Shown here one piece after another: positions 6,423-46,123 of a stretch of DNA of 64,000 nucleotides; the first letter of the stretch is position 1; the number at the start of each line of letters is the position of its first letter. The stretch lies in the NCBI RefSeq assembly GCF_003334405.1, contig NZ_QOWM01000006.1. One strand, written 5' to 3'. The position numbers were made by a program, and so were the translations under genes. Source of the stretch: Escherichia coli. Lineage in GTDB: Bacteria; Pseudomonadota; Gammaproteobacteria; Enterobacterales; Enterobacteriaceae. A model generated the notes under the pieces. It saw nothing but the letters and a program-made list of their open reading frames with translations. It searched no databases and was not told the DNA's origin.

Positions 6423-7797
6423 GCGGCATCCCCAGTACGCGGATTAACTCTTCAAAGGTGGTTAAGCCTTGCTCTACGGCCAGGCAGCCGTTTTCAAAAA
6501 GCGTACGCATACCCGCCTGTCGTGCGTGCGTTTCCAGCGATTCAACGTCGGTATTAGCGGAAATAAGCTGACGAATGACCGGCGTTATGGGCAGAACTTC
6601 AAATAAGGCCGTACGACCATAAAAACCGTGGTAGCAATGTACACAACCGGGTGCCTGCCAGTGGGGCAGCGGCGATGGCCATACATTGTCTGGAATGTGG
6701 ATGGGCTCCCCTTGCTGCCGGCGACAATGTGGGCAAAGTTTGCGTACCAGACGCTGGGCTATTACCAGCGTAAGCGCCGATGATAGCATCCAGCGGGCGA
6801 CCCCCATTTGCTGTAAACGTACCAGCGTTTCGCAGGTGGAATTAGTGTGTAGGGTAGACAACACCAGGTGACCAGTTTGCGCCGCGTTAATAGCGATCTC
6901 TGCTGTTTCGCCATCGCGGATCTCTCCGATCATGATGACGTCAGGATCCTGGCGCAATAACGCACGCAAAACGCCCTGAAAGGTGAGTCCGGCACGCGGA
7001 TGGATTTGCGTCTGGTTTAGTCCGGCTATGGGGATCTCAACTGGATCTTCGACGCTACAAATATTAATGTCAGCGGTATTCAGCTTTTGCAGGGCACTAT
7101 AAAGCGTGACCGTTTTGCCGCTGCCGGTAGGGCCAGTTACCAGCACCAGTCCCTGTGGTTGTTGCAAGGCATGAGCAAAGTCCGCCAGTTGTAACGGCTG
7201 CATTCCAAGCGTGTTGACATCCAGTGCCTGACCCACCTGCTGTAACAACCTTAATACCACCTTTTCACCACCCCGACATGGTAAGGTCGCAATACGAAAT
7301 GAGACGGCGTTTCCTGCCAGTTCGACAGTGAATTGCCCGTCCTGCGGCAGGCGATGTTCCGCAATATCCAGGTTTCCCAGCACTTTTAATCTGGCGGTTA
7401 ATGCGACTCCGGCATCCGGTGAAACATCCGGTAAAGGATGCAATACGCCGTCGATACGCAAGCGGATGCGGTAGGCATTGTCCGCTGGTTCGATATGAAT
7501 ATCAGACGCGCGTTGTTCCAGCGCAGATTGTAACGTTCGAGTTAGCAACTCTGCTTTGGGCTGATGCTTCTCCTGAACAGCTACGGGCAATGTCTGTTGT
7601 GTGCGACTGGCGTGACCTTCCATTTGTTGGCGCGTCCAGCAGGTGATCTCAATACGTTTGGTGGTAGCGAAATGCAATGCGTCCAGTAGCTCATGCGAAG
7701 GTGCATCGACTACCGCAACATGAACCACCTCTTCGCTGGCATCCAGCAAGACTCCATGATAACGCAGACACAGGGCAGTGAGCTGTGGAATATTCAT
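6412..7797 (-). CDS. hofB: Type IV pilus assembly ATPase (PilB/GspE family)
   Basis: 461-aa ORF with Walker A GPTGSGKT and tetracysteine motif CPHC...CVHC. Confidence 0.9.
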   Translation of the reverse strand: MNIPQLTALCLRYHGVLLDASEEVVHVAVVDAPSHELLDALHFATTKRIEITCWTRQQMEGHASRTQQTLPVAVQEKHQPKAELLTRTLQSALEQRASDIHIEPADNAYRIRLRIDGVLHPLPDVSPDAGVALTARLKVLGNLDIAEHRLPQDGQFTVELAGNAVSFRIATLPCRGGEKVVLRLLQQVGQALDVNTLGMQPLQLADFAHALQQPQGLVLVTGPTGSGKTVTLYSALQKLNTADINICSVEDPVEIPIAGLNQTQIHPRAGLTFQGVLRALLRQDPDVIMIGEIRDGETAEIAINAAQTGHLVLSTLHTNSTCETLVRLQQMGVARWMLSSALTLVIAQRLVRKLCPHCRRQQGEPIHIPDNVWPSPLPHWQAPGCVHCYHGFYGRTALFEVLPITPVIRQLISANTDVESLETHARQAGMRTLFENGCLAVEQGLTTFEELIRVLGMPHGE

Positions 7798-7806
7798 TGC
7801 CGCTCC

Positions 7807-8247
7807 TTAGTTGGCGTCATCAAAGCGGAAGACATCTTCGCAGGCTTGCTGCAATGCGCTGTCACTTTGAATATTGCAGTTGCGCGTCCAGCCGGTGACG
7901 CCGTTTGCGTTATCCCAACCCGGTGTCATGACGACGCTTAGCCCATTGAGACTTTCTTGCCCGGTCAGCGACACCACGCCCTTTGCCACACTCATGGCTG
8001 AAACATAGCGGGTGGTGGTAGGCGAGGGAATGCCATTGCTGCCACCGTCGCAGGTATCTAATCCACCATGTTCCAGCGCGCACAACTCTACGGCGGTACG
8101 GTAAGGCACAAAGGTTTGTAGCATGTCGGTGAGTGCGGCTTTGCGCAGGTAGTTTTGATAAGCGGGAATACCAATGGCGCTTAAAATGGCAATGATGCCA
8201 ATAACCACCATCAGTTCGATAAGTGTAAAACCGCGTTGCTTGTCCAT
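7807..8247 (-). CDS. ppdD: Prepilin (type IV pilin)
   Basis: 146-aa ORF with N-terminal prepilin signature GFTLIELMVVIGIIAIL. Confidence 0.9.
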   Translation of the reverse strand: MDKQRGFTLIELMVVIGIIAILSAIGIPAYQNYLRKAALTDMLQTFVPYRTAVELCALEHGGLDTCDGGSNGIPSPTTTRYVSAMSVAKGVVSLTGQESLNGLSVVMTPGWDNANGVTGWTRNCNIQSDSALQQACEDVFRFDDAN

Positions 8248-8449
8248 CTGTTTCGCTCCTTGATTTGGTTGGCGCTACTTTGGCAAATGCCATCAGCACA
8301 GGCGAGGGGCAAAAAACGAAACGGGAAAGCAGATTCCGAGGTTTTTTATTTCGTTGCAGCGAAAGACAAGAAATTTGCGAGGCGTTACGAAGAAAGTTGG
8401 GGAAGGGGAGATTATCCGCCCGCGATGGAGCGGATAAATCTGTCAACTA

Positions 8450-26294: not shown

Positions 26295-27161
26295 TTAGGA
26301 CGGCTGTGAAGCCAGTGCGTCTTGCAGATACTGAGGTAAGGCAAAAGCTGCCGTATGGATTGCCGGATTGTAATAACGGCATTTCAGGCCAGAGGCGAGA
26401 AAACGCGCCTGAATAATTTCGGTTGAGAGATGGCGTAAGGCGTCGTTATCTGTCGCCCATGCAAAAGTCATGATACCGCCGTAATAGGTCGGGATCGCCG
26501 CCTGATAAAAGCCAACGTCGCTGAAGTAATGGCTGAGTTTGCGATGGCTGTCGATGGCTTCTTCCTGCTGTAAAAAGCAGACGCCGTTTTGTGCGACGAA
26601 GATACCGCCAGGATTCAGGCAACGTTTGCAGCCTTCATAAAATGCCGAAGTGAAAAGGCTTTCGCCGGGACCGATAGGATCGGTGCAGTCGGAGATAATG
26701 ACATCAAAGGTCTGGCTGGTTTGATTAACGAAATTGACGCCATCGTCGATCACCAGCTTAAAGCGCGGATCGTCGTAGCTACCGGCGTTATGGTTGGGTA
26801 GATACTGACGGCAGAACGATACGACACCCGCATCGATTTCCACCATCGTGATTGACTCAACGTTTTTATGTCGGGTTACTTCACGCAGCATGGCACCGTC
26901 GCCGCCGCCGATAATCAGCACATGTTTCGCGTGACCATGGGCCAGTAGCGGAACATGGGTCATCATCTCATGATAGATAAACTCGTCGCGCTCGGTGGTT
27001 TGTACTACGCCATCCAGCGCCATTACGCGACCAAATGCAGCGTTCTCAAAAATGATCAGATCCTGGTGATCGGTCTTTTCATGATACAGAACGTTATCTA
27101 CCGCAAAGTACTGCCCAAACTGGTCGTGTAGCGTTTCATGCCACTGTTTTTTTTCGGCCAT
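26295..27161 (-). CDS. speE: Spermidine synthase
   Basis: 288-aa ORF with GGGDG SAM-binding motif. Confidence 0.95.
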
Positions 27162-27266
27162 GGGTTGATACCTCCTTTGTTAACACCCGTAAAAAAAGGG
27201 CGCAACATAATAGCTAACATTGACCGCGGATGCACGGTCAATATTTCTACAAAAAGGTATCAGGGA

Positions 27267-27614
27267 TTATTTGACGTAGGCAAGCAGGCTTAAGGAATCG
27301 CGGGCCAGGGCTTTGCATTTTTTAGCGACGGGAATGCCAATGCCGCTGAGATCGCGGTAGCTGTCTTCACCGAGGGCTTTCATGTCGAAGGTGTCGTAAT
27401 TACTGAGGTCCCACTGGTTTTGCTGAGCGAAAAAGACCAGTGCGCGACGAATTTGCCCGTTAGGTAAGTTCTGGTAACCACAATCGTTCTTCAGAAAGAC
27501 AAAAACTGCCGTTAAATCGGCCATATCTTCGGCTTCAGACTCGCTGAGCGCGTAACTGTTTGCGCAGACGGCCATCAGGCTGCCGAATAACACTGTTCTG
27601 AAAAACGTCTTCAT
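27267..27614 (-). CDS. yacC: Uncharacterised small secreted protein YacC (possible PulS/OutS pilotin-like family)
   Basis: Start placed at MKTFFRTVLFGSLMAVCANSYA (signal peptide); ORF-track extension to 27785 rejected because it would overlap the cueO promoter and start. Confidence 0.8.
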   Translation of the reverse strand: MKTFFRTVLFGSLMAVCANSYALSESEAEDMADLTAVFVFLKNDCGYQNLPNGQIRRALVFFAQQNQWDLSNYDTFDMKALGEDSYRDLSGIGIPVAKKCKALARDSLSLLAYVK

Positions 27615-27706
27615 TGCTTCTACCAGGGGCTTAAAGAAGATAAACGTTAGCACACTGCGAGCGAGGCGACGACCATTATTGTCGATTAAATTGTGTCTGC
27701 GGCTTG

Positions 27707-27725
27707 ACCTTCCCGTAAGGGGAAG
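27707..27725. promoter_or_regulatory. CueR (MerR-type) operator in the cueO promoter
   Basis: Dyad ccttccc-gtaag-gggaagg overlapping a cttgac -35-like hexamer, about 55 bp upstream of cueO; matches the known copper-box architecture. Confidence 0.7.
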
Positions 27726-27779
27726 GACTATGCTCAACGTTTGATTTTGTTTCGCCTGCTTAAGAATAAGGAAATAACT

Positions 27780-29330
27780 ATGCAACGTCGTGATTTCTTA
27801 AAATATTCCGTCGCGCTGGGTGTGGCTTCGGCTTTGCCGCTGTGGAGCCGCGCAGTATTTGCGGCAGAACGCCCAACGTTACCGATCCCTGATTTGCTCA
27901 CGACCGATGCCCGTAATCGCATTCAGTTAACTATTGGCGCAGGCCAGTCCACCTTTGGCGGGAAAACTGCAACTACCTGGGGCTATAACGGCAATCTGCT
28001 GGGGCCGGCGGTGAAATTACAGCGCGGCAAAGCGGTAACGGTTGATATCTACAACCAACTGACGGAAGAGACAACGTTGCACTGGCACGGGCTGGAAGTA
28101 CCGGGTGAAGTCGACGGCGGCCCGCAGGGAATTATTCCGCCAGGTGGCAAGCGCTCGGTGACGTTGAACGTTGATCAACCTGCCGCTACCTGCTGGTTCC
28201 ATCCGCATCAGCACGGCAAAACCGGGCGACAGGTGGCGATGGGGCTGGCTGGGCTGGTGGTGATTGAAGATGACGAGATCCTGAAATTAATGCTGCCAAA
28301 ACAGTGGGGTATCGATGATGTTCCGGTGATCGTTCAGGATAAGAAATTTAGCGCCGACGGGCAGATTGATTATCAACTGGATGTGATGACCGCCGCCGTG
28401 GGCTGGTTTGGCGATACGTTGCTGACCAACGGTGCAATCTACCCGCAACACGCTGCCCCGCGTGGTTGGCTGCGCCTGCGTTTGCTCAATGGCTGTAATG
28501 CCCGTTCGCTCAATTTCGCCACCAGCGACAATCGCCCGCTGTATGTGATTGCCAGCGACGGTGGTCTGCTACCTGAACCAGTGAAGGTGAGCGAACTGCC
28601 GGTGCTGATGGGCGAGCGTTTTGAAGTGCTGGTGGAGGTTAACGATAACAAACCCTTTGACCTGGTGACGCTGCCGGTCAGCCAGATGGGGATGGCGATT
28701 GCGCCGTTTGATAAGCCTCATCCGGTAATGCGGATTCAGCCGATTGCTATTAGTGCCTCCGGTGCTTTGCCAGACACATTAAGTAGCCTGCCTGCGTTAC
28801 CTTCGCTGGAAGGGCTGACGGTACGCAAGCTGCAACTCTCTATGGACCCGATGCTCGATATGATGGGGATGCAGATGCTAATGGAGAAATATGGCGATCA
28901 GGCGATGGCCGGGATGGATCACAGCCAGATGATGGGCCATATGGGGCACGGCAATATGAATCATATGAACCACGGCGGGAAGTTCGATTTCCACCATGCC
29001 AACAAAATCAACGGTCAGGCGTTTGATATGAACAAGCCGATGTTTGCGGCGGCGAAAGGGCAATACGAACGTTGGGTTATCTCTGGCGTGGGCGACATGA
29101 TGCTGCATCCGTTCCATATCCACGGCACGCAGTTCCGTATCTTGTCAGAAAATGGCAAACCGCCAGCGGCTCATCGCGCGGGCTGGAAAGATACCGTTAA
29201 GGTAGAAGGTAATGTCAGCGAAGTGCTGGTGAAGTTTAATCACGATGCACCGAAAGAACATGCTTATATGGCGCACTGCCATCTGCTGGAGCATGAAGAT
29301 ACGGGGATGATGTTAGGGTTTACGGTATAA
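27780..29330 (+). CDS. cueO: Multicopper oxidase CueO (Tat-exported)
   Basis: Start placed at [28 protein letters not shown] (twin-arginine signal); Met-rich insert; HCHLLEHED copper site at the C-terminus. Confidence 0.95.
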
Positions 29331-43525: not shown

Positions 43526-46123
43526 TTACTGAATCTGACACCGAATTCCATTCAGAATAATAGATTGTGCTATTTTTTCTGCTTCTGGGCTTTGTTGATA
43601 ATGCGCAAGACAACTTACGGGTTTACTTTGTTCGAGCCATTTAATGCTGATATTTCCCTGCTGCTCAATACCACGAACAAATGCTTGTCCACCCTGTCCA
43701 ACATTACCAATGACATTGCCTTGCTCATCATAAATATCTGCAGCAAATGGAATATTTTTACCATCACTTCGTGTGATGTTCATAATGGCTGATTGCCCTT
43801 GCACGGTTTCAAAATCAGCAAAGACGACTGAACCCTGACGCGGTACAGCTACTGCACTGGTACTTTTTAATTCAACATCGTTCTCAAGATCGTTGATATC
43901 CAGCGCGATACGGTTTTCATGATAAGGAGAAAGAGCGCTGGTGACACCATAACCCCATCGATCGATAGTACTGTTGCCATAATTTATTCGCGCTCCTTGA
44001 GCACCTGGAGCCTGAACTACCGCCAGTGTATCGGAGTCGCTAAAACTATCATTACTGAAAGTCAGTCCACCGCTATGCAATACAAAACCACCGTCGGTGC
44101 TGAGAGAAACTTGACGGCTGTTATCGCTATTTGCAGAAATTGAACCTGCCAGCGTTCCCCATGGTGACTCATAGCTGGCATAACCCCCAACATAACTCAA
44201 ATCTTTGCTGGCTTTATTCATCGTATAGCCAGTATTCACGCTATAACTGACGCGAGCGTTATCGCTATAGCCACTGCTGCTAACGTTGAGTTGGTTATTA
44301 CCCTTAAAGTCACTGCTTATTTGAGTATCAATACTCTGGAAACCTGAAGTACGTTGTTCAGTGCCAAGTAATTTTTCAATTGGAATGGTGAAACTAAGAT
44401 AAACGCTATCGTCAGTGTCGCCGTCTTCATTCCATGAACGCTGGGCACTGACACTGTAGCTGCCCCAGGATGTACTGTTACTGTAGCCAATAGAGTAATT
44501 GCTACGATTTTGTCCGGAAGCCCAGTAATCGGACCAACTTCCGGAAAGATAAAATGAACCGTAATCTTTTTTCTCAAATTTCAACGGTTGGTTAATACTG
44601 ACCGTAACCTGATTTTTCATGCGTGAGTAATTACGCATGGATTTCGGTTCAAGATCTTGTTCGGGATGTTTCACTTCATCAATTAGAGTTAGTGCATCAT
44701 TAAGACCAAGGTAATTCTGTGTCGAATAGCGATAGGCCGCGATATTCAGTGAAGTACTTGTTTCTTCGAATAACTTGTTCCAGGAAACACGATAACTTTG
44801 CCCCTGGTATGTTTTATCATCCGGGATACGAACATTGGAATGAGTCACATCGAAAGAAAATGCACCAACTGAAGTATTCAGACCAAGACCTAACAAACCA
44901 GCGGTATAGTTATTATCGGTTATCTGAATACCGGTATAACCCGTCAGATAGTTATTCAGGCCGTAGTAGTAGCTTGCTTGAAATAAATTAGGCTCATCCT
45001 GAATATCATCTTTTAAGACCTGACCGCCGCTAATATCCCAACGTCCAACGCCAGGGCGTAACATTTGAACAACGGATGAGAAAGGTTGCGAGAATGTCCG
45101 CTTTGAGCCATCGGATTCTTCGATGGTAACAATAAGATCGCTGCCGTACCCTGACGGACTCAGATCATCAATGACGAAAGCGCCTGGCGGCACCGTCGTT
45201 TCATAAATCTTATAGCCACCTTGCGTAATAGTGACTTTGGCGTTGGTATTGGCAACGCCATGAATGATAGGCGCAAAGCTGGCTAAAGTCGGAGGCAACA
45301 TGCGGCTGTCACTGTATAAACGAATGCCTCGGATACTGACGGAATCAAAGGTTTCGCCCGTCGTATAAGACTCACCAAGAATGAGTTGAGAACGCAGCGA
45401 GGCGATATCACGCTGAACATACCGATTCTTAAAATCATAATTACTGCCAGAATCGGTCATCCAGTTGTAGTTGCCCGAGGCACGCAGTCGCCATGCACCT
45501 AAATTCATCCCACCGTTAAATGCAGCATAAATGCTTTCATTTTTTCGACCAGGGGTTTCACTATGATATCCGTTGAGGTTGTATGACAACATGGCCGCAT
45601 TAATGCCGTTTTCCCATAACGATGGATCAACATAGTTTTGGTAATTTTTCATTACCCAGGCTTGAGGAACGTCTATATCCAGACGTTGATCGTTAACGTC
45701 ATAACGAACAGAAGCCTGAGGGATAATTTCCGTCAAATTGAGGCAATTGCCGAGCGTTTCATCCCTGGCAAGCAGAACGGCTTTTTCGTTATTTATATCG
45801 GGAGAATTAATATGAAACTGCAATAAATTCTTTAATGTGATACAAGCCTGGGCGTTCTTTTTTCCTTCAATTGCGACAAATGTAATACTTTGGTTAATGA
45901 TTGGTTGGTCGTTTACATAAACACTGACGTCGTAAACACCCGGTATAGCGGGGTTACCTTCACTGTACCGGCTGAGATCAATATTAGATGCATTCTGCCC
46001 CATCAGGAAGGTATGGTCATATTCAACGAGTTCAGCACTGAAAGCAGTATTGCAATACAGCAGCGCGCAAAACGTGGCGATACGGGTCAGATGATGATAA
46101 TTTTTAGTATATTCTATAGTCAC
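43526..46123 (-). CDS. htrE: Outer-membrane fimbrial usher
   Basis: 865-aa ORF, usher family, recognised as HtrE. Confidence 0.93.
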   Translation of the reverse strand: MTIEYTKNYHHLTRIATFCALLYCNTAFSAELVEYDHTFLMGQNASNIDLSRYSEGNPAIPGVYDVSVYVNDQPIINQSITFVAIEGKKNAQACITLKNLLQFHINSPDINNEKAVLLARDETLGNCLNLTEIIPQASVRYDVNDQRLDIDVPQAWVMKNYQNYVDPSLWENGINAAMLSYNLNGYHSETPGRKNESIYAAFNGGMNLGAWRLRASGNYNWMTDSGSNYDFKNRYVQRDIASLRSQLILGESYTTGETFDSVSIRGIRLYSDSRMLPPTLASFAPIIHGVANTNAKVTITQGGYKIYETTVPPGAFVIDDLSPSGYGSDLIVTIEESDGSKRTFSQPFSSVVQMLRPGVGRWDISGGQVLKDDIQDEPNLFQASYYYGLNNYLTGYTGIQITDNNYTAGLLGLGLNTSVGAFSFDVTHSNVRIPDDKTYQGQSYRVSWNKLFEETSTSLNIAAYRYSTQNYLGLNDALTLIDEVKHPEQDLEPKSMRNYSRMKNQVTVSINQPLKFEKKDYGSFYLSGSWSDYWASGQNRSNYSIGYSNSTSWGSYSVSAQRSWNEDGDTDDSVYLSFTIPIEKLLGTEQRTSGFQSIDTQISSDFKGNNQLNVSSSGYSDNARVSYSVNTGYTMNKASKDLSYVGGYASYESPWGTLAGSISANSDNSRQVSLSTDGGFVLHSGGLTFSNDSFSDSDTLAVVQAPGAQGARINYGNSTIDRWGYGVTSALSPYHENRIALDINDLENDVELKSTSAVAVPRQGSVVFADFETVQGQSAIMNITRSDGKNIPFAADIYDEQGNVIGNVGQGGQAFVRGIEQQGNISIKWLEQSKPVSCLAHYQQSPEAEKIAQSIILNGIRCQIQ

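What the first reader, a model, noticed from the sequence alone, without database searches (positions are those of the whole stretch)
27267..27779. yacC, a small secreted protein divergent from cueO, shares a compact control region with the CueR operator
yacC encodes a 115-aa signal-peptide protein. From memory it belongs to the PulS/OutS pilotin-like family, although no cognate secretin is nearby; I cannot verify the family assignment here. It diverges from cueO across about 165 bp that contain the MerR-type CueR dyad ccttcccgtaaggggaagg. Whether yacC responds to copper or CueR from this shared region is, as far as I know, untested.
Basis: partly seen in the sequence, partly recalled or inferred. 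Interest (0 to 1): 0.3.

Follow-up and report, generated by a model that had tools for sequence, protein, structure and literature searches.

The report
yacC–cueO divergent genes, independently controlled
This is the well-known E. coli yacC–cueO gene pair: yacC encodes a small, soluble periplasmic relative of the PulS/OutS secretion "pilotins", it has its own promoter, and it does not appear to share the copper (CueR) switch that sits inside the neighbouring cueO promoter, so the finding is real but ordinary.

Summary
yacC is at 27267-27614 on the minus strand and encodes 115 aa with a signal peptide. It lies 165 bp from cueO (ATG 27780). The CueR dyad ccttcccgtaaggggaagg is at 27708-26.

The family guess is right: Pfam PF09691 gives E=3e-9, NCBIfam gives "YacC family pilotin-like", and the predicted fold matches only PulS/OutS/GspS. 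However, YacC fails the tests for a true pilotin:
- It has no lipobox. Cys17 is not conserved, while NSYA|LSE (a signal peptidase I site) is invariant.
- It scores below the GspS equivalog cutoff.
- No secretin gene is nearby.
- Published work shows EPEC GspD assembles without it.

The "shared control region" is only a matter of position. The dyad lies in the 19-bp spacer of the cueO promoter and is centred at -80 from the mapped yacC start site (27637). yacC has its own conserved extended -10 promoter. That promoter travels with yacC where cueO is not adjacent, and its distance to the CueR box varies among species. In a copper RNA-seq data set, cueO rises 44-fold, while yacC is absent from the complete list of 487 genes induced at least 2-fold.

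Everything here is already annotated or published. YacC's real partner remains unknown. One uncomplemented Klebsiella transposon mutant hints at a type II secretion role.

The parts
27267..27614 (-). yacC coding sequence: 115 codons plus the TAA stop
   Evidence: ORF and translation. Annotated yacC, 'YacC family pilotin-like protein', in RefSeq E. coli genomes. NF037975 scores 196.8 bits against a cutoff of 80.
27549..27614 (-). Signal peptide (residues 1-22), cleaved by signal peptidase I after NSYA; not a lipoprotein signal
   Evidence: Among 54 distinct orthologue sequences from 80 species, Cys17 is often Ser or Gly, while NSYA|L[ST/N]E is invariant. MAVC has Val at -1, which does not fit the lipobox rule. 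Diverged members (Sodalis, Arsenophonus) also have AxA-type sites.
27270..27548 (-). Mature PulS/OutS-fold domain (residues 23-115), with two invariant cysteines (C45, C100)
   Evidence: Pfam PF09691 covers residues 24-105, E=3e-9. A family profile hits OutS 4k0u at 3.6e-9, PulS 4a56 at 7e-8 and GspS 3sol at 1e-3. The AF2 model has pLDDT above 90 over the domain. The top four Foldseek PDB hits are PulS/OutS/GspS, TM 0.71-0.77, with nothing else significant. C45 and C100 are invariant.
27637..27637 (-). yacC transcription start site (23-nt 5'UTR)
   Evidence: Genome-wide 5'RACE of primary transcripts gives MG1655 136940(-), which is window 27637 (offset 109303) (Kim et al. 2012, PMC3415461 supplement). 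K. pneumoniae TSSs map at the equivalent place.
27643..27652 (-). yacC extended -10 element TGcTAACGT(T)
   Evidence: The hexamer ends 7 nt upstream of the mapped TSS. It is an invariant block across about 70 distinct intergenic sequences. It is retained about 30 nt upstream of yacC in loci where cueO is not adjacent (L083, L086).
27666..27680 (-). yacC -35 region (TCGTCG, 27667-72) and an A/T-rich block just upstream (AATAAT, 27675-80; UP-like)
   Evidence: GCGACGA and TTTATT are conserved blocks in the alignment. The 17-bp spacing to the -10 hexamer was read from the sequence. That these blocks are functional is inferred.
27681..27703 (.). Non-conserved spacer of variable length between the two promoter modules
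   Evidence: Alignment. The distance from the yacC -10 block to the cueO -35 is 40/41 bp in 60 species and 50-52 bp in 15 (including E. coli), with single cases of 47, 61, 85 and 96 bp.
27704..27734 (+). MerR-type cueO promoter: -35 TTGACC, CueR dyad 27708-27726, -10 TATGCT, 19-bp spacer
   Evidence: Unique pattern match, 0 expected by chance. Conserved in all Enterobacteriaceae loci examined and in the Arsenophonus-like loci L084 and L085. Named as a candidate CueR site of the yacC-yacK divergon in PMC1526738.
27699..27699 (+). A second, upstream cueO start site seen without added copper (81-nt 5'UTR)
   Evidence: MG1655 137002(+) in Kim et al. 2012. A -10-like TAAATT at 27687-92 lies in a segment absent from Enterobacter and Klebsiella.
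27780..29330 (+). cueO coding sequence (multicopper oxidase), preceded by the SD TAAGGAA at 27767-73
   Evidence: ORF, annotation, conserved SD block.

Best explanation
yacC and cueO are two autonomous transcription units placed back to back.

Shown:
- The CueR operator is part of the cueO promoter only. It lies in the 19-bp spacer between that promoter's -35 and -10.
- yacC is transcribed from its own sigma-70-type promoter: extended -10 TGcTAACGT, weak -35, TSS at 27637. The CueR dyad is centred at -80 relative to this TSS.
- yacC is not induced at least 2-fold by copper under conditions that induce cueO 44-fold.
- YacC is exported with a signal-peptidase-I signal.
- YacC is a member of the YacC branch of the PulS/OutS fold family, which is confined to the Enterobacterales.

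Inferred:
- Because it lacks the lipid anchor, YacC cannot pilot a secretin to the outer membrane through the Lol pathway as PulS does.
- It most likely uses the PulS-type helical groove to bind a short amphipathic segment of a periplasmic or outer-membrane partner. A possible partner is the S-domain of a Klebsiella-type secretin. In this role YacC would act as a soluble chaperone or stabiliser.
- The partner is not identified.
For: Family and fold:
- Sequence and profile matches.
- AF2 model with pLDDT 86.6.
- Foldseek top hits are only PulS/OutS/GspS. AFDB50 returns YacC proteins from Serratia, Proteus, Morganella, Pantoea and Limnobaculum first, then GspS pilotins.

Non-lipoprotein status: Cys17 is variable and NSYA|LSE is invariant. 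The same holds in diverged members.

Own promoter:
- TSS 136940(-) = window 27637. K. pneumoniae TSSs lie at the same conserved element.
- The conserved blocks are separate from the CueR block.
- The inter-module spacing is variable.
- TGCTAACGT is kept in L083 and L086, where hpt rather than cueO is the divergent neighbour.

No mirrored MerR-type promoter on the yacC strand: TTGAGC (27737-32) would need a 24-bp spacer to the nearest -10-like hexamer (read).

Copper response: the complete 487-gene list of genes up at 2 mM Cu contains cueO (log2FC 5.46) and copA (6.84) but not yacC/b0122.

Independent constraint: mature YacC has a median identity of 96.8% across 60 non-Escherichia species, against 81.5% for CueO.

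Secretion link: K. pneumoniae KPN_00130::Tn5 lacks outer-membrane PulA. GspD-alpha of E. coli is a Klebsiella-type secretin.
Against: On regulation:
- No direct yacC promoter fusion or cueR-mutant measurement was found.
- The lists of copper-repressed genes and part of the 8 mM list were not available, so repression or a change below 2-fold is not excluded.
- The two -35 elements are only 21-31 bp apart. Steric or supercoiling coupling between the two RNA polymerases is therefore physically possible.
- The common spacing classes differ by about 10 bp (40/41 versus 50-52 versus 61), which could hint at a phase constraint.

On function:
- EPEC delta-yacC has normal GspD-beta assembly and SslE secretion.
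- The Klebsiella mutant was not complemented and could be polar on speED.
- An AF2 fusion of YacC with the GspD-alpha C-terminus gave no confident docking.
- YacC is kept in lineages that, to my knowledge, lack a T2SS (Salmonella). This argues for a partner other than a T2SS secretin.
Confidence: 0.65

Rival explanations
1. CueR, bound at the dyad, also controls yacC, so yacC is a third member of the CueR copper regulon through the shared 165-bp region.
For: yacC and cueO are divergent and adjacent in 79 of 80 Enterobacteriaceae species, with gaps of 143-200 bp. The CueR box is always present. PMC1526738 speaks of a 'yacC-yacK divergon'. The two -35 elements lie 21-31 bp apart.
Against: - The dyad is centred at -80 from the yacC TSS, outside its core promoter. 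By established knowledge, MerR-family activators act by untwisting an overlong spacer of the promoter that contains the operator.
- There is no mirrored promoter on the yacC strand.
- The spacing between the modules varies from 40 to 96 bp.
- The yacC promoter is retained where cueO is not adjacent.
- yacC is absent from the complete list of genes induced at least 2-fold by copper, while cueO rises 44-fold.
Confidence: 0.07
2. YacC is a true pilotin: an outer-membrane lipoprotein that escorts a distantly encoded secretin (GspD-alpha, PulD or HofQ) to the outer membrane.
For: Homology and fold are shared with PulS/OutS/GspS. It is the only PulS-OutS family member in E. coli strains that carry the Klebsiella-type GspD-alpha. 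K. pneumoniae yacC::Tn5 lacks outer-membrane PulA. Some databases label it 'chaperone lipoprotein YacC'.
Against: - No lipobox: Cys17 is not conserved, and the signal-peptidase-I site is invariant.
- TIGR01004 scores 38.5 bits, below the 75 cutoff.
- Klebsiella, Raoultella, Serratia and Pantoea carry both a GspS/PulS and a YacC, so the two are not interchangeable.
- EPEC GspD assembly and SslE secretion do not depend on YacC, and co-expression has no effect.
- No secretin gene lies near yacC in any locus examined.
- AF2 gave no confident docking of the GspD-alpha tail (weak evidence, no control).
Confidence: 0.1
3. YacC works with CueO at the protein level, for example as a periplasmic partner in copper handling, and that is why the two genes stay together.
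For: The adjacency persists from Escherichia to an Arsenophonus-like lineage with 38-51% YacC identity.
Against: - cueO is absent from the yacC neighbourhood in L083 and L086, and lies 5.3 kb away in Intestinirhabdus. speE-speD is the constant neighbour.
- YacC has no Met-, His- or Cys-rich metal motif. Its only two conserved Cys align with Cys residues of OutS.
- It is not co-induced by copper.
- The two proteins evolve at very different rates.
Confidence: 0.06
4. yacC is functionally tied to the downstream speE-speD operon, through read-through transcription or a polyamine-related role.
For: The order yacC -> speE -> speD on one strand is kept in every Enterobacterales locus examined apart from two very distant ones. 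No intrinsic terminator was predicted between yacC and speE.
Against: speE has its own mapped TSS at window 27201. A periplasmic protein with a pilotin fold has no evident link to cytoplasmic spermidine synthesis. In some Citrobacter and in K. pneumoniae other DNA lies between yacC and speE.
Confidence: 0.05

Closest known systems
PulS / OutS / GspS (EtpO) pilotins of Klebsiella-type type II secretion systems (Pfam PF09691; PDB 4A56, 3UTK/4K0U, 3SOL, 6HCG)
   Same: Homologous over the whole mature domain (E 3.6e-9 to 1e-3 with a family profile). Same small helical fold (TM 0.71-0.77). Both YacC cysteines align with cysteines of OutS in the pairwise alignment.
   Different: YacC has no lipobox and is predicted to be soluble. 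It scores below the GspS equivalog cutoff. It is not encoded with a T2SS. It coexists with genuine PulS/GspS in several genera. It is not needed for EPEC GspD assembly.
YacC family pilotin-like protein (NCBIfam NF037975)
   Same: Full-length equivalog match at 196.8 bits against a cutoff of 80. This gene is the name-giving member.
   Different: Nothing. This is the family it belongs to, and the family has no established function.
PA3611 of Pseudomonas aeruginosa, the non-lipoprotein homologue of AspS pilotins discussed by Dunstan et al. 2013
   Same: A soluble periplasmic paralogue of a lipoprotein pilotin, suggested to bind and stabilise secretins rather than target them. This is the same logic proposed here for YacC.
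   Different: An unrelated fold (AspS type). The function is also only a suggestion.
Divergent MerR-type control regions such as merR/merTPAD, where one operator does govern both divergent promoters (my own knowledge)
   Same: A MerR-family dyad in a 19-bp promoter spacer, with a gene transcribed divergently.
   Different: In the mer system the divergent promoter overlaps the operator, so MerR represses it. Here the mapped yacC core promoter lies 36-64 bp beyond the edge of the dyad, and the distance varies among species.
CueR regulon promoters PcopA and PcueO of E. coli
   Same: The element at 27704-27734 is the published cueO (yacK) CueR-dependent promoter. cueO and copA are strongly induced by copper.
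   Different: yacC lacks the defining architecture and the copper response.

Membership tests
Pfam PF09691 T2SS_PulS_OutS (fold family) | Significant match to the family HMM | tested here: met
   i-Evalue 3e-9, 37.4 bits, residues 24-105 matched to model positions 23-103 of 110.
Pfam PF09691 T2SS_PulS_OutS (fold family) | PulS-type small helical bundle fold | tested here: met
   AF2 model with pLDDT above 90 in the mature part. The only significant PDB matches are 6hcg_P, 3utk, 4a56 and 3sol.
Pfam PF09691 T2SS_PulS_OutS (fold family) | Conserved cysteine pair | tested here: met
   C45 and C100 are invariant in 22 family members and align with Cys residues of OutS. That they form a disulfide bond is inferred.
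GspS pilot lipoprotein (NCBIfam TIGR01004, equivalog) | Score at or above the curated cutoff | tested here: not met
   38.5 bits against a cutoff of 75.
GspS pilot lipoprotein (NCBIfam TIGR01004, equivalog) | Lipoprotein signal peptide (lipobox with invariant Cys) for Lol-dependent outer-membrane targeting | tested here: not met
   MAVC has Val at -1. Cys17 is replaced by Ser or Gly in many orthologues. NSYA|LSE is invariant. Lipidation itself cannot be tested here.
GspS pilot lipoprotein (NCBIfam TIGR01004, equivalog) | Encoded with, or co-occurring with, a cognate T2SS secretin | tested here: not met
   No secretin in the 64-kb window or in the related loci fetched. Whole-genome co-occurrence was not tested.
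GspS pilot lipoprotein (NCBIfam TIGR01004, equivalog) | Required for outer-membrane localisation or multimerisation of the secretin | not testable with these tools
   The literature conflicts. EPEC delta-yacC is normal for GspD-beta and SslE (PMC3542185). K. pneumoniae KPN_00130::Tn5 lacks outer-membrane PulA but was not complemented (PMC4505419).
GspS pilot lipoprotein (NCBIfam TIGR01004, equivalog) | Binds the secretin C-terminal S-domain | tested here: inconclusive
   In an AF2 fusion with the last 49 residues of K-12 GspD-alpha, the peptide had pLDDT 31-60 and its last 29 residues were below 50. There was no positive control.
YacC family (NCBIfam NF037975) | Full-length match above the cutoff | tested here: met
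   196.8 bits against a cutoff of 80, residues 1-115 matched to model positions 1-115.
CueR (MerR-type) regulon member | CueR dyad inside an overlong (19-20 bp) spacer between the -35 and -10 of the regulated promoter | tested here: not met
   Met for cueO (27704-27734). For yacC the dyad is centred at -80 from the TSS, and there is no mirrored promoter.
CueR (MerR-type) regulon member | Copper- and CueR-dependent induction | tested here: not met
   Tested from published data only. yacC/b0122 is absent from the complete list of 487 genes up at least 2-fold at 2 mM Cu, in which cueO is ranked 26 and copA 13. A cueR-mutant comparison was not available.

The most novel reading that the evidence does not exclude
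YacC is an unrecognised soluble step in secretin or outer-membrane protein biogenesis. On this reading it is a non-lipidated PulS-fold chaperone, kept almost invariant across the Enterobacterales (mature protein about 97% identical from Escherichia to Klebsiella). It would hold the S-domain, or a similar amphipathic tail, of Klebsiella-type secretins or another envelope client before or instead of the lipoprotein pilotin. This would reconcile the loss of PulA in the Klebsiella yacC::Tn5 mutant with the negative EPEC result.
Probability: 0.2. Interest if true: 0.5.

Novelty: already known. Interest (0 to 1): 0.12.

Why it matters
As a finding about regulation it matters little. The CueR box is the published cueO operator, and the available evidence says yacC does not use it.

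What remains of interest is the protein. YacC is a core Enterobacterales periplasmic protein of unknown function, and in the species compared here it is more conserved than the housekeeping enzyme SpeE. It has a pilotin fold but no lipid anchor, and the two published genetic results on it conflict. Identifying its partner would remove one gene from the E. coli 'y-ome' and could add a soluble step to models of secretin assembly.

Tried and rejected
- **Generic promoter scan.** It found nothing in 27150-27850. Its rules exclude both a 19-bp-spacer MerR promoter and an extended -10 promoter with a weak -35, so the negative result says nothing.
- **Distant database hits.** I looked for distant YacC relatives fused into giant proteins (P0129, 4728 aa; also P0157, P0155, P0162). 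These are artefacts: each repeat scores only about 3 bits, and the total comes from summing many tandem copies.
- **AF2 fusion of mature YacC with the GspD-alpha C-terminus.** No confident docking, but there was no positive control, so this is uninformative.
- **Helical-phase idea.** The common spacing classes differ by about 10 bp (40/41, 50-52, 61), but 47, 85 and 96 do not fit. There are too few independent indels to conclude anything.
- **Sigma-S hint.** There is a C at -13 and a TG motif, and YacC protein falls together with curli proteins in PMC7580552. I could not test this.
- **Second TGCTAACGTT at 44278.** It lies inside an usher gene on the antisense strand and was judged to be chance.
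- **Literature not reached.** Kershaw 2005 is not held. The PRECISE-1K iModulon supplements were blocked by the paper cap. The Reg-Seq preprint included the yacC promoter and copper conditions but reports no yacC result in its text.
- **The 172-aa mechanical ORF from TTG 27785.** Rejected: the TSS lies downstream of it, and the upstream part is not conserved in frame (indels of about 10 bp).

Full report
**1. What is there.**
The window is E. coli chromosome. An 801-bp probe around the finding matches all 5426 complete E. coli genomes and is annotated speE / yacC / cueO. The surrounding annotation runs ppdD ... aceEF-lpd ... acnB-yacL-speD-speE-yacC | cueO-gcd-hpt. yacC occupies 27267-27614 on the minus strand and encodes 115 aa. 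The dyad CCTTCCCGTAAGGGGAAGG lies at 27708-27726 between TTGACC (27704-09) and TATGCT (27729-34), a 19-bp spacer. The combined pattern is unique in the window, with none expected by chance. No secretin homologue is present in the window, nor within about 6 kb of yacC in the related loci fetched.

**2. The protein.**
Pfam places residues 24-105 in PF09691 T2SS_PulS_OutS (E=3e-9). NCBIfam gives a full-length equivalog match to NF037975, 'YacC family pilotin-like protein' (196.8 bits, cutoff 80). It gives only 38.5 bits to the true pilotin model TIGR01004, whose cutoff is 75.

Against PDB sequences, the single protein hits OutS (3e-5) and PulS. A 22-member family profile hits OutS at 3.6e-9, PulS at 7e-8 and EHEC GspS at 1e-3, over the whole mature domain. 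An AF2 model (mean pLDDT 86.6, above 90 in the mature part) matches only the four solved PulS/OutS/GspS structures, at TM 0.71-0.77. In AFDB50 it finds YacC proteins of Serratia, Proteus, Morganella, Pantoea and Limnobaculum first, then GspS/PulS/OutS pilotins, and no other fold. The family guess is therefore right.

YacC nevertheless differs from pilotins in the feature that makes a pilotin work. Among 54 distinct orthologue sequences from 80 species, Cys17 is frequently Ser or Gly, and the preceding residue is Val or Met. The sequence NSYA|LSE is invariant, which is a signal-peptidase-I site rather than a lipobox. Diverged members identified as Sodalis (62% identity) and Arsenophonus (51%) show the same pattern. 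YacC is thus predicted to be a soluble periplasmic protein. It cannot ride the Lol pathway as PulS does; that last point rests on established knowledge of PulS-PulD targeting.

The family is narrow. Only 44 clusters at 50% identity were found among 1.84 billion representatives. Many of these are fragments, and four are repeat-summation artefacts.

Within Enterobacteriaceae the mature protein is strikingly constrained. Across the same 60 non-Escherichia loci, its median identity to E. coli is 96.8%, against 91.3% for SpeE and 81.5% for CueO. One caveat applies: the loci were the best 80 of 167 ranked by YacC similarity.

**3. The control region.**
Published genome-wide 5'RACE of primary transcripts maps the yacC start at MG1655 136940(-), which is window 27637 (offset 109303), giving a 23-nt leader. 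In K. pneumoniae the yacC starts fall at the equivalent position (PMC3415461 supplement). Seven nucleotides upstream lies an extended -10 element, TGcTAACGT (27652-27644). Seventeen bp further upstream is a weak -35, TCGTCG (27672-27667), followed by an A/T-rich block.

An alignment of about 70 distinct intergenic sequences shows two separately conserved modules:
- On the yacC side: AACGTTAGCAyAC, GCGACGA and TTTATT.
- On the cueO side: CTTGACCTTCC..GGG.AGG..TA.GCT, plus the SD TAAGGAA.

Between the two modules lies a stretch that is unconserved in both sequence and length. The distance from the yacC -10 block to the cueO -35 is 40/41 bp in 60 species and 50-52 bp in 15 (including E. coli), with single cases of 47, 61, 85 and 96 bp.

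The dyad centre (27717) is at -80 relative to the yacC start, outside its core promoter. On the yacC strand there is no -35/-10 pair flanking the dyad at MerR-type spacing. The modules also separate in evolution:
- In two diverged lineages (L083, 63% identity; L086, 46%), hpt rather than cueO is the divergent neighbour. TGCTAACGT still sits about 30 nt upstream of yacC there.
- In the Arsenophonus-like loci L084 and L085, cueO brings its CueR box with it.
- In Intestinirhabdus, 5.3 kb separates the two genes.

The constant neighbour of yacC is speE-speD, downstream on the same strand.

**4. Copper response.**
A 2026 preprint (doi 10.64898/2026.03.12.711415) profiled MG1655 after 30 min in 2 mM CuSO4, with thresholds of padj below 0.01 and at least 2-fold change. 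Its sheet of up-regulated genes is held complete, from rank 1 (cusC) to rank 487 (lolD, log2FC 1.002). copA is rank 13 (115-fold) and cueO rank 26 (44-fold). Neither 'yacC' nor 'b0122' occurs in it. So, under conditions that fully activate CueR targets, yacC is not induced 2-fold. Repression or small changes cannot be excluded, because the down-regulated lists were not held. No cueR-mutant data for yacC were found. The Reg-Seq preprint put the yacC promoter in its library and used copper conditions, but it reports no yacC result in its text.

**5. What the literature already says about function.**
Dunstan et al. 2013 found YacC by HMM as a PulS-OutS relative. They showed that EPEC delta-yacC secretes SslE and assembles GspD (a Vibrio-type secretin) normally. 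[quoted passage not shown] They concluded that YacC either serves another secretin or does something different (PMC3542185). They also classify E. coli GspD-alpha as Klebsiella-type, and they suggest that a non-lipoprotein AspS homologue, PA3611, might stabilise secretins.

In contrast, a K. pneumoniae screen recovered a Tn5 insertion in KPN_00130, the true yacC orthologue. It reported that PulA is absent from the outer membranes of this mutant, as in a pulC mutant. The yacC mutant was not complemented, and polarity on speED is not excluded (PMC4505419).

Other mentions are incidental:
- YacC protein rises after gentamicin, independently of Cpx.
- It falls together with curli proteins after one antibiofilm drug.
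- There are mild fitness signals in Salmonella.

My own attempt to dock the last 49 residues of K-12 GspD-alpha onto YacC by an AF2 fusion gave low confidence for the peptide. Without a positive control this is uninformative.

**6. Interpretation.**
The best-supported picture is two autonomous, back-to-back transcription units. CueR acts on cueO alone. yacC has its own constitutive-looking extended -10 promoter. It encodes a soluble periplasmic paralogue of the PulS/OutS pilotins, with an unknown partner. By analogy with the fold, YacC probably clamps a short amphipathic segment of that partner. The steps from fold to groove binding, and from there to a secretin client, are inference.

The rival readings each have specific evidence against them, set out in the rival list:
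- CueR co-regulation of yacC.
- YacC as a true lipoprotein pilotin.
- A protein-level partnership with CueO.
- A functional tie to speED.

**7. Novelty and score.**
The gene, its family, the negative pilotin test, the CueR operator and even the phrase 'yacC-yacK divergon' (PMC1526738) are already published or annotated. The finding is real but already known, and its one speculative element (copper or CueR control of yacC) is disfavoured by architecture, comparative data and expression data. Interest is low. The residual value lies in YacC as an extremely conserved orphan of the y-ome with two conflicting genetic reports.

Noticed in passing
window 27664-27699 (+): Without added copper, the mapped cueO start is at 27699 (81-nt leader), not at the CueR-type promoter. 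Its -10-like TAAATT (27687-92) lies in a 10-20 bp segment present in Escherichia and some Citrobacter but absent from Enterobacter and Klebsiella. Its -35 zone overlaps the yacC -35 on the other strand. Its transcript would begin 9 nt before the CueR dyad, which as RNA forms a 7-bp G+C-rich hairpin.
   Followed up: partly
window 27612-27620; locus L091 (E. coli HB101, NZ_CP184671.1): In the laboratory strain HB101 a 768-bp IS1A sits 6 nt upstream of the yacC ATG, with a 9-bp target duplication CATTGCTTC. This cuts yacC off from its mapped promoter and most of its ribosome-binding region but leaves the cueO promoter intact. HB101 may be a natural yacC expression mutant.
   Followed up: partly
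window 27216-27245: An inverted repeat AACATTGACCG-N8-CGGTCAATATT lies in the 105-bp gap between the yacC stop and the speE start. It overlaps the speE promoter region (speE TSS at window 27201). No intrinsic terminator was predicted between yacC and speE on the minus strand, so read-through into speED is possible.
   Followed up: no
window 27270-27548, compared with loci L002-L081: Mature YacC is more conserved than its neighbours. Its median identity to E. coli is 96.8% across 60 non-Escherichia Enterobacteriaceae, against 91.3% for SpeE and 81.5% for CueO in the same loci. Almost all YacC variation is in the signal peptide. The loci were selected by YacC similarity, so the figure is biased upward.
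   Followed up: partly
loci L088 (1627-2001) and L089 (5001-5378): The most distant YacC-like genes (35% and 27% identity, from unidentified metagenome organisms) lie in a different context. They sit between a class-I glutamine amidotransferase gene and rcsF-trmO, that is, immediately upstream of the gene for the outer-membrane lipoprotein stress sensor RcsF.
   Followed up: no
window 27653-27703, compared with 79 species: The spacing between the yacC -10 block and the cueO -35 falls into classes of 40/41, 50-52 and 61 bp (steps of about one helical turn), plus outliers at 47, 85 and 96 bp. There are too few independent events to say whether helical phase is constrained.
   Followed up: partly
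window about 7100-8340 (locus L001 1-1244): Type IV pilin genes ppdD and hofB (annotated as gspE-like) lie about 19 kb from yacC. No secretin gene accompanies them in the window.
   Followed up: no
proteins P0129, P0157, P0155, P0162: These very large or repetitive proteins appeared as significant YacC hits in the representative search only because many near-identical tandem repeats, each scoring about 3 bits, were summed. They are not relatives.
   Followed up: yes
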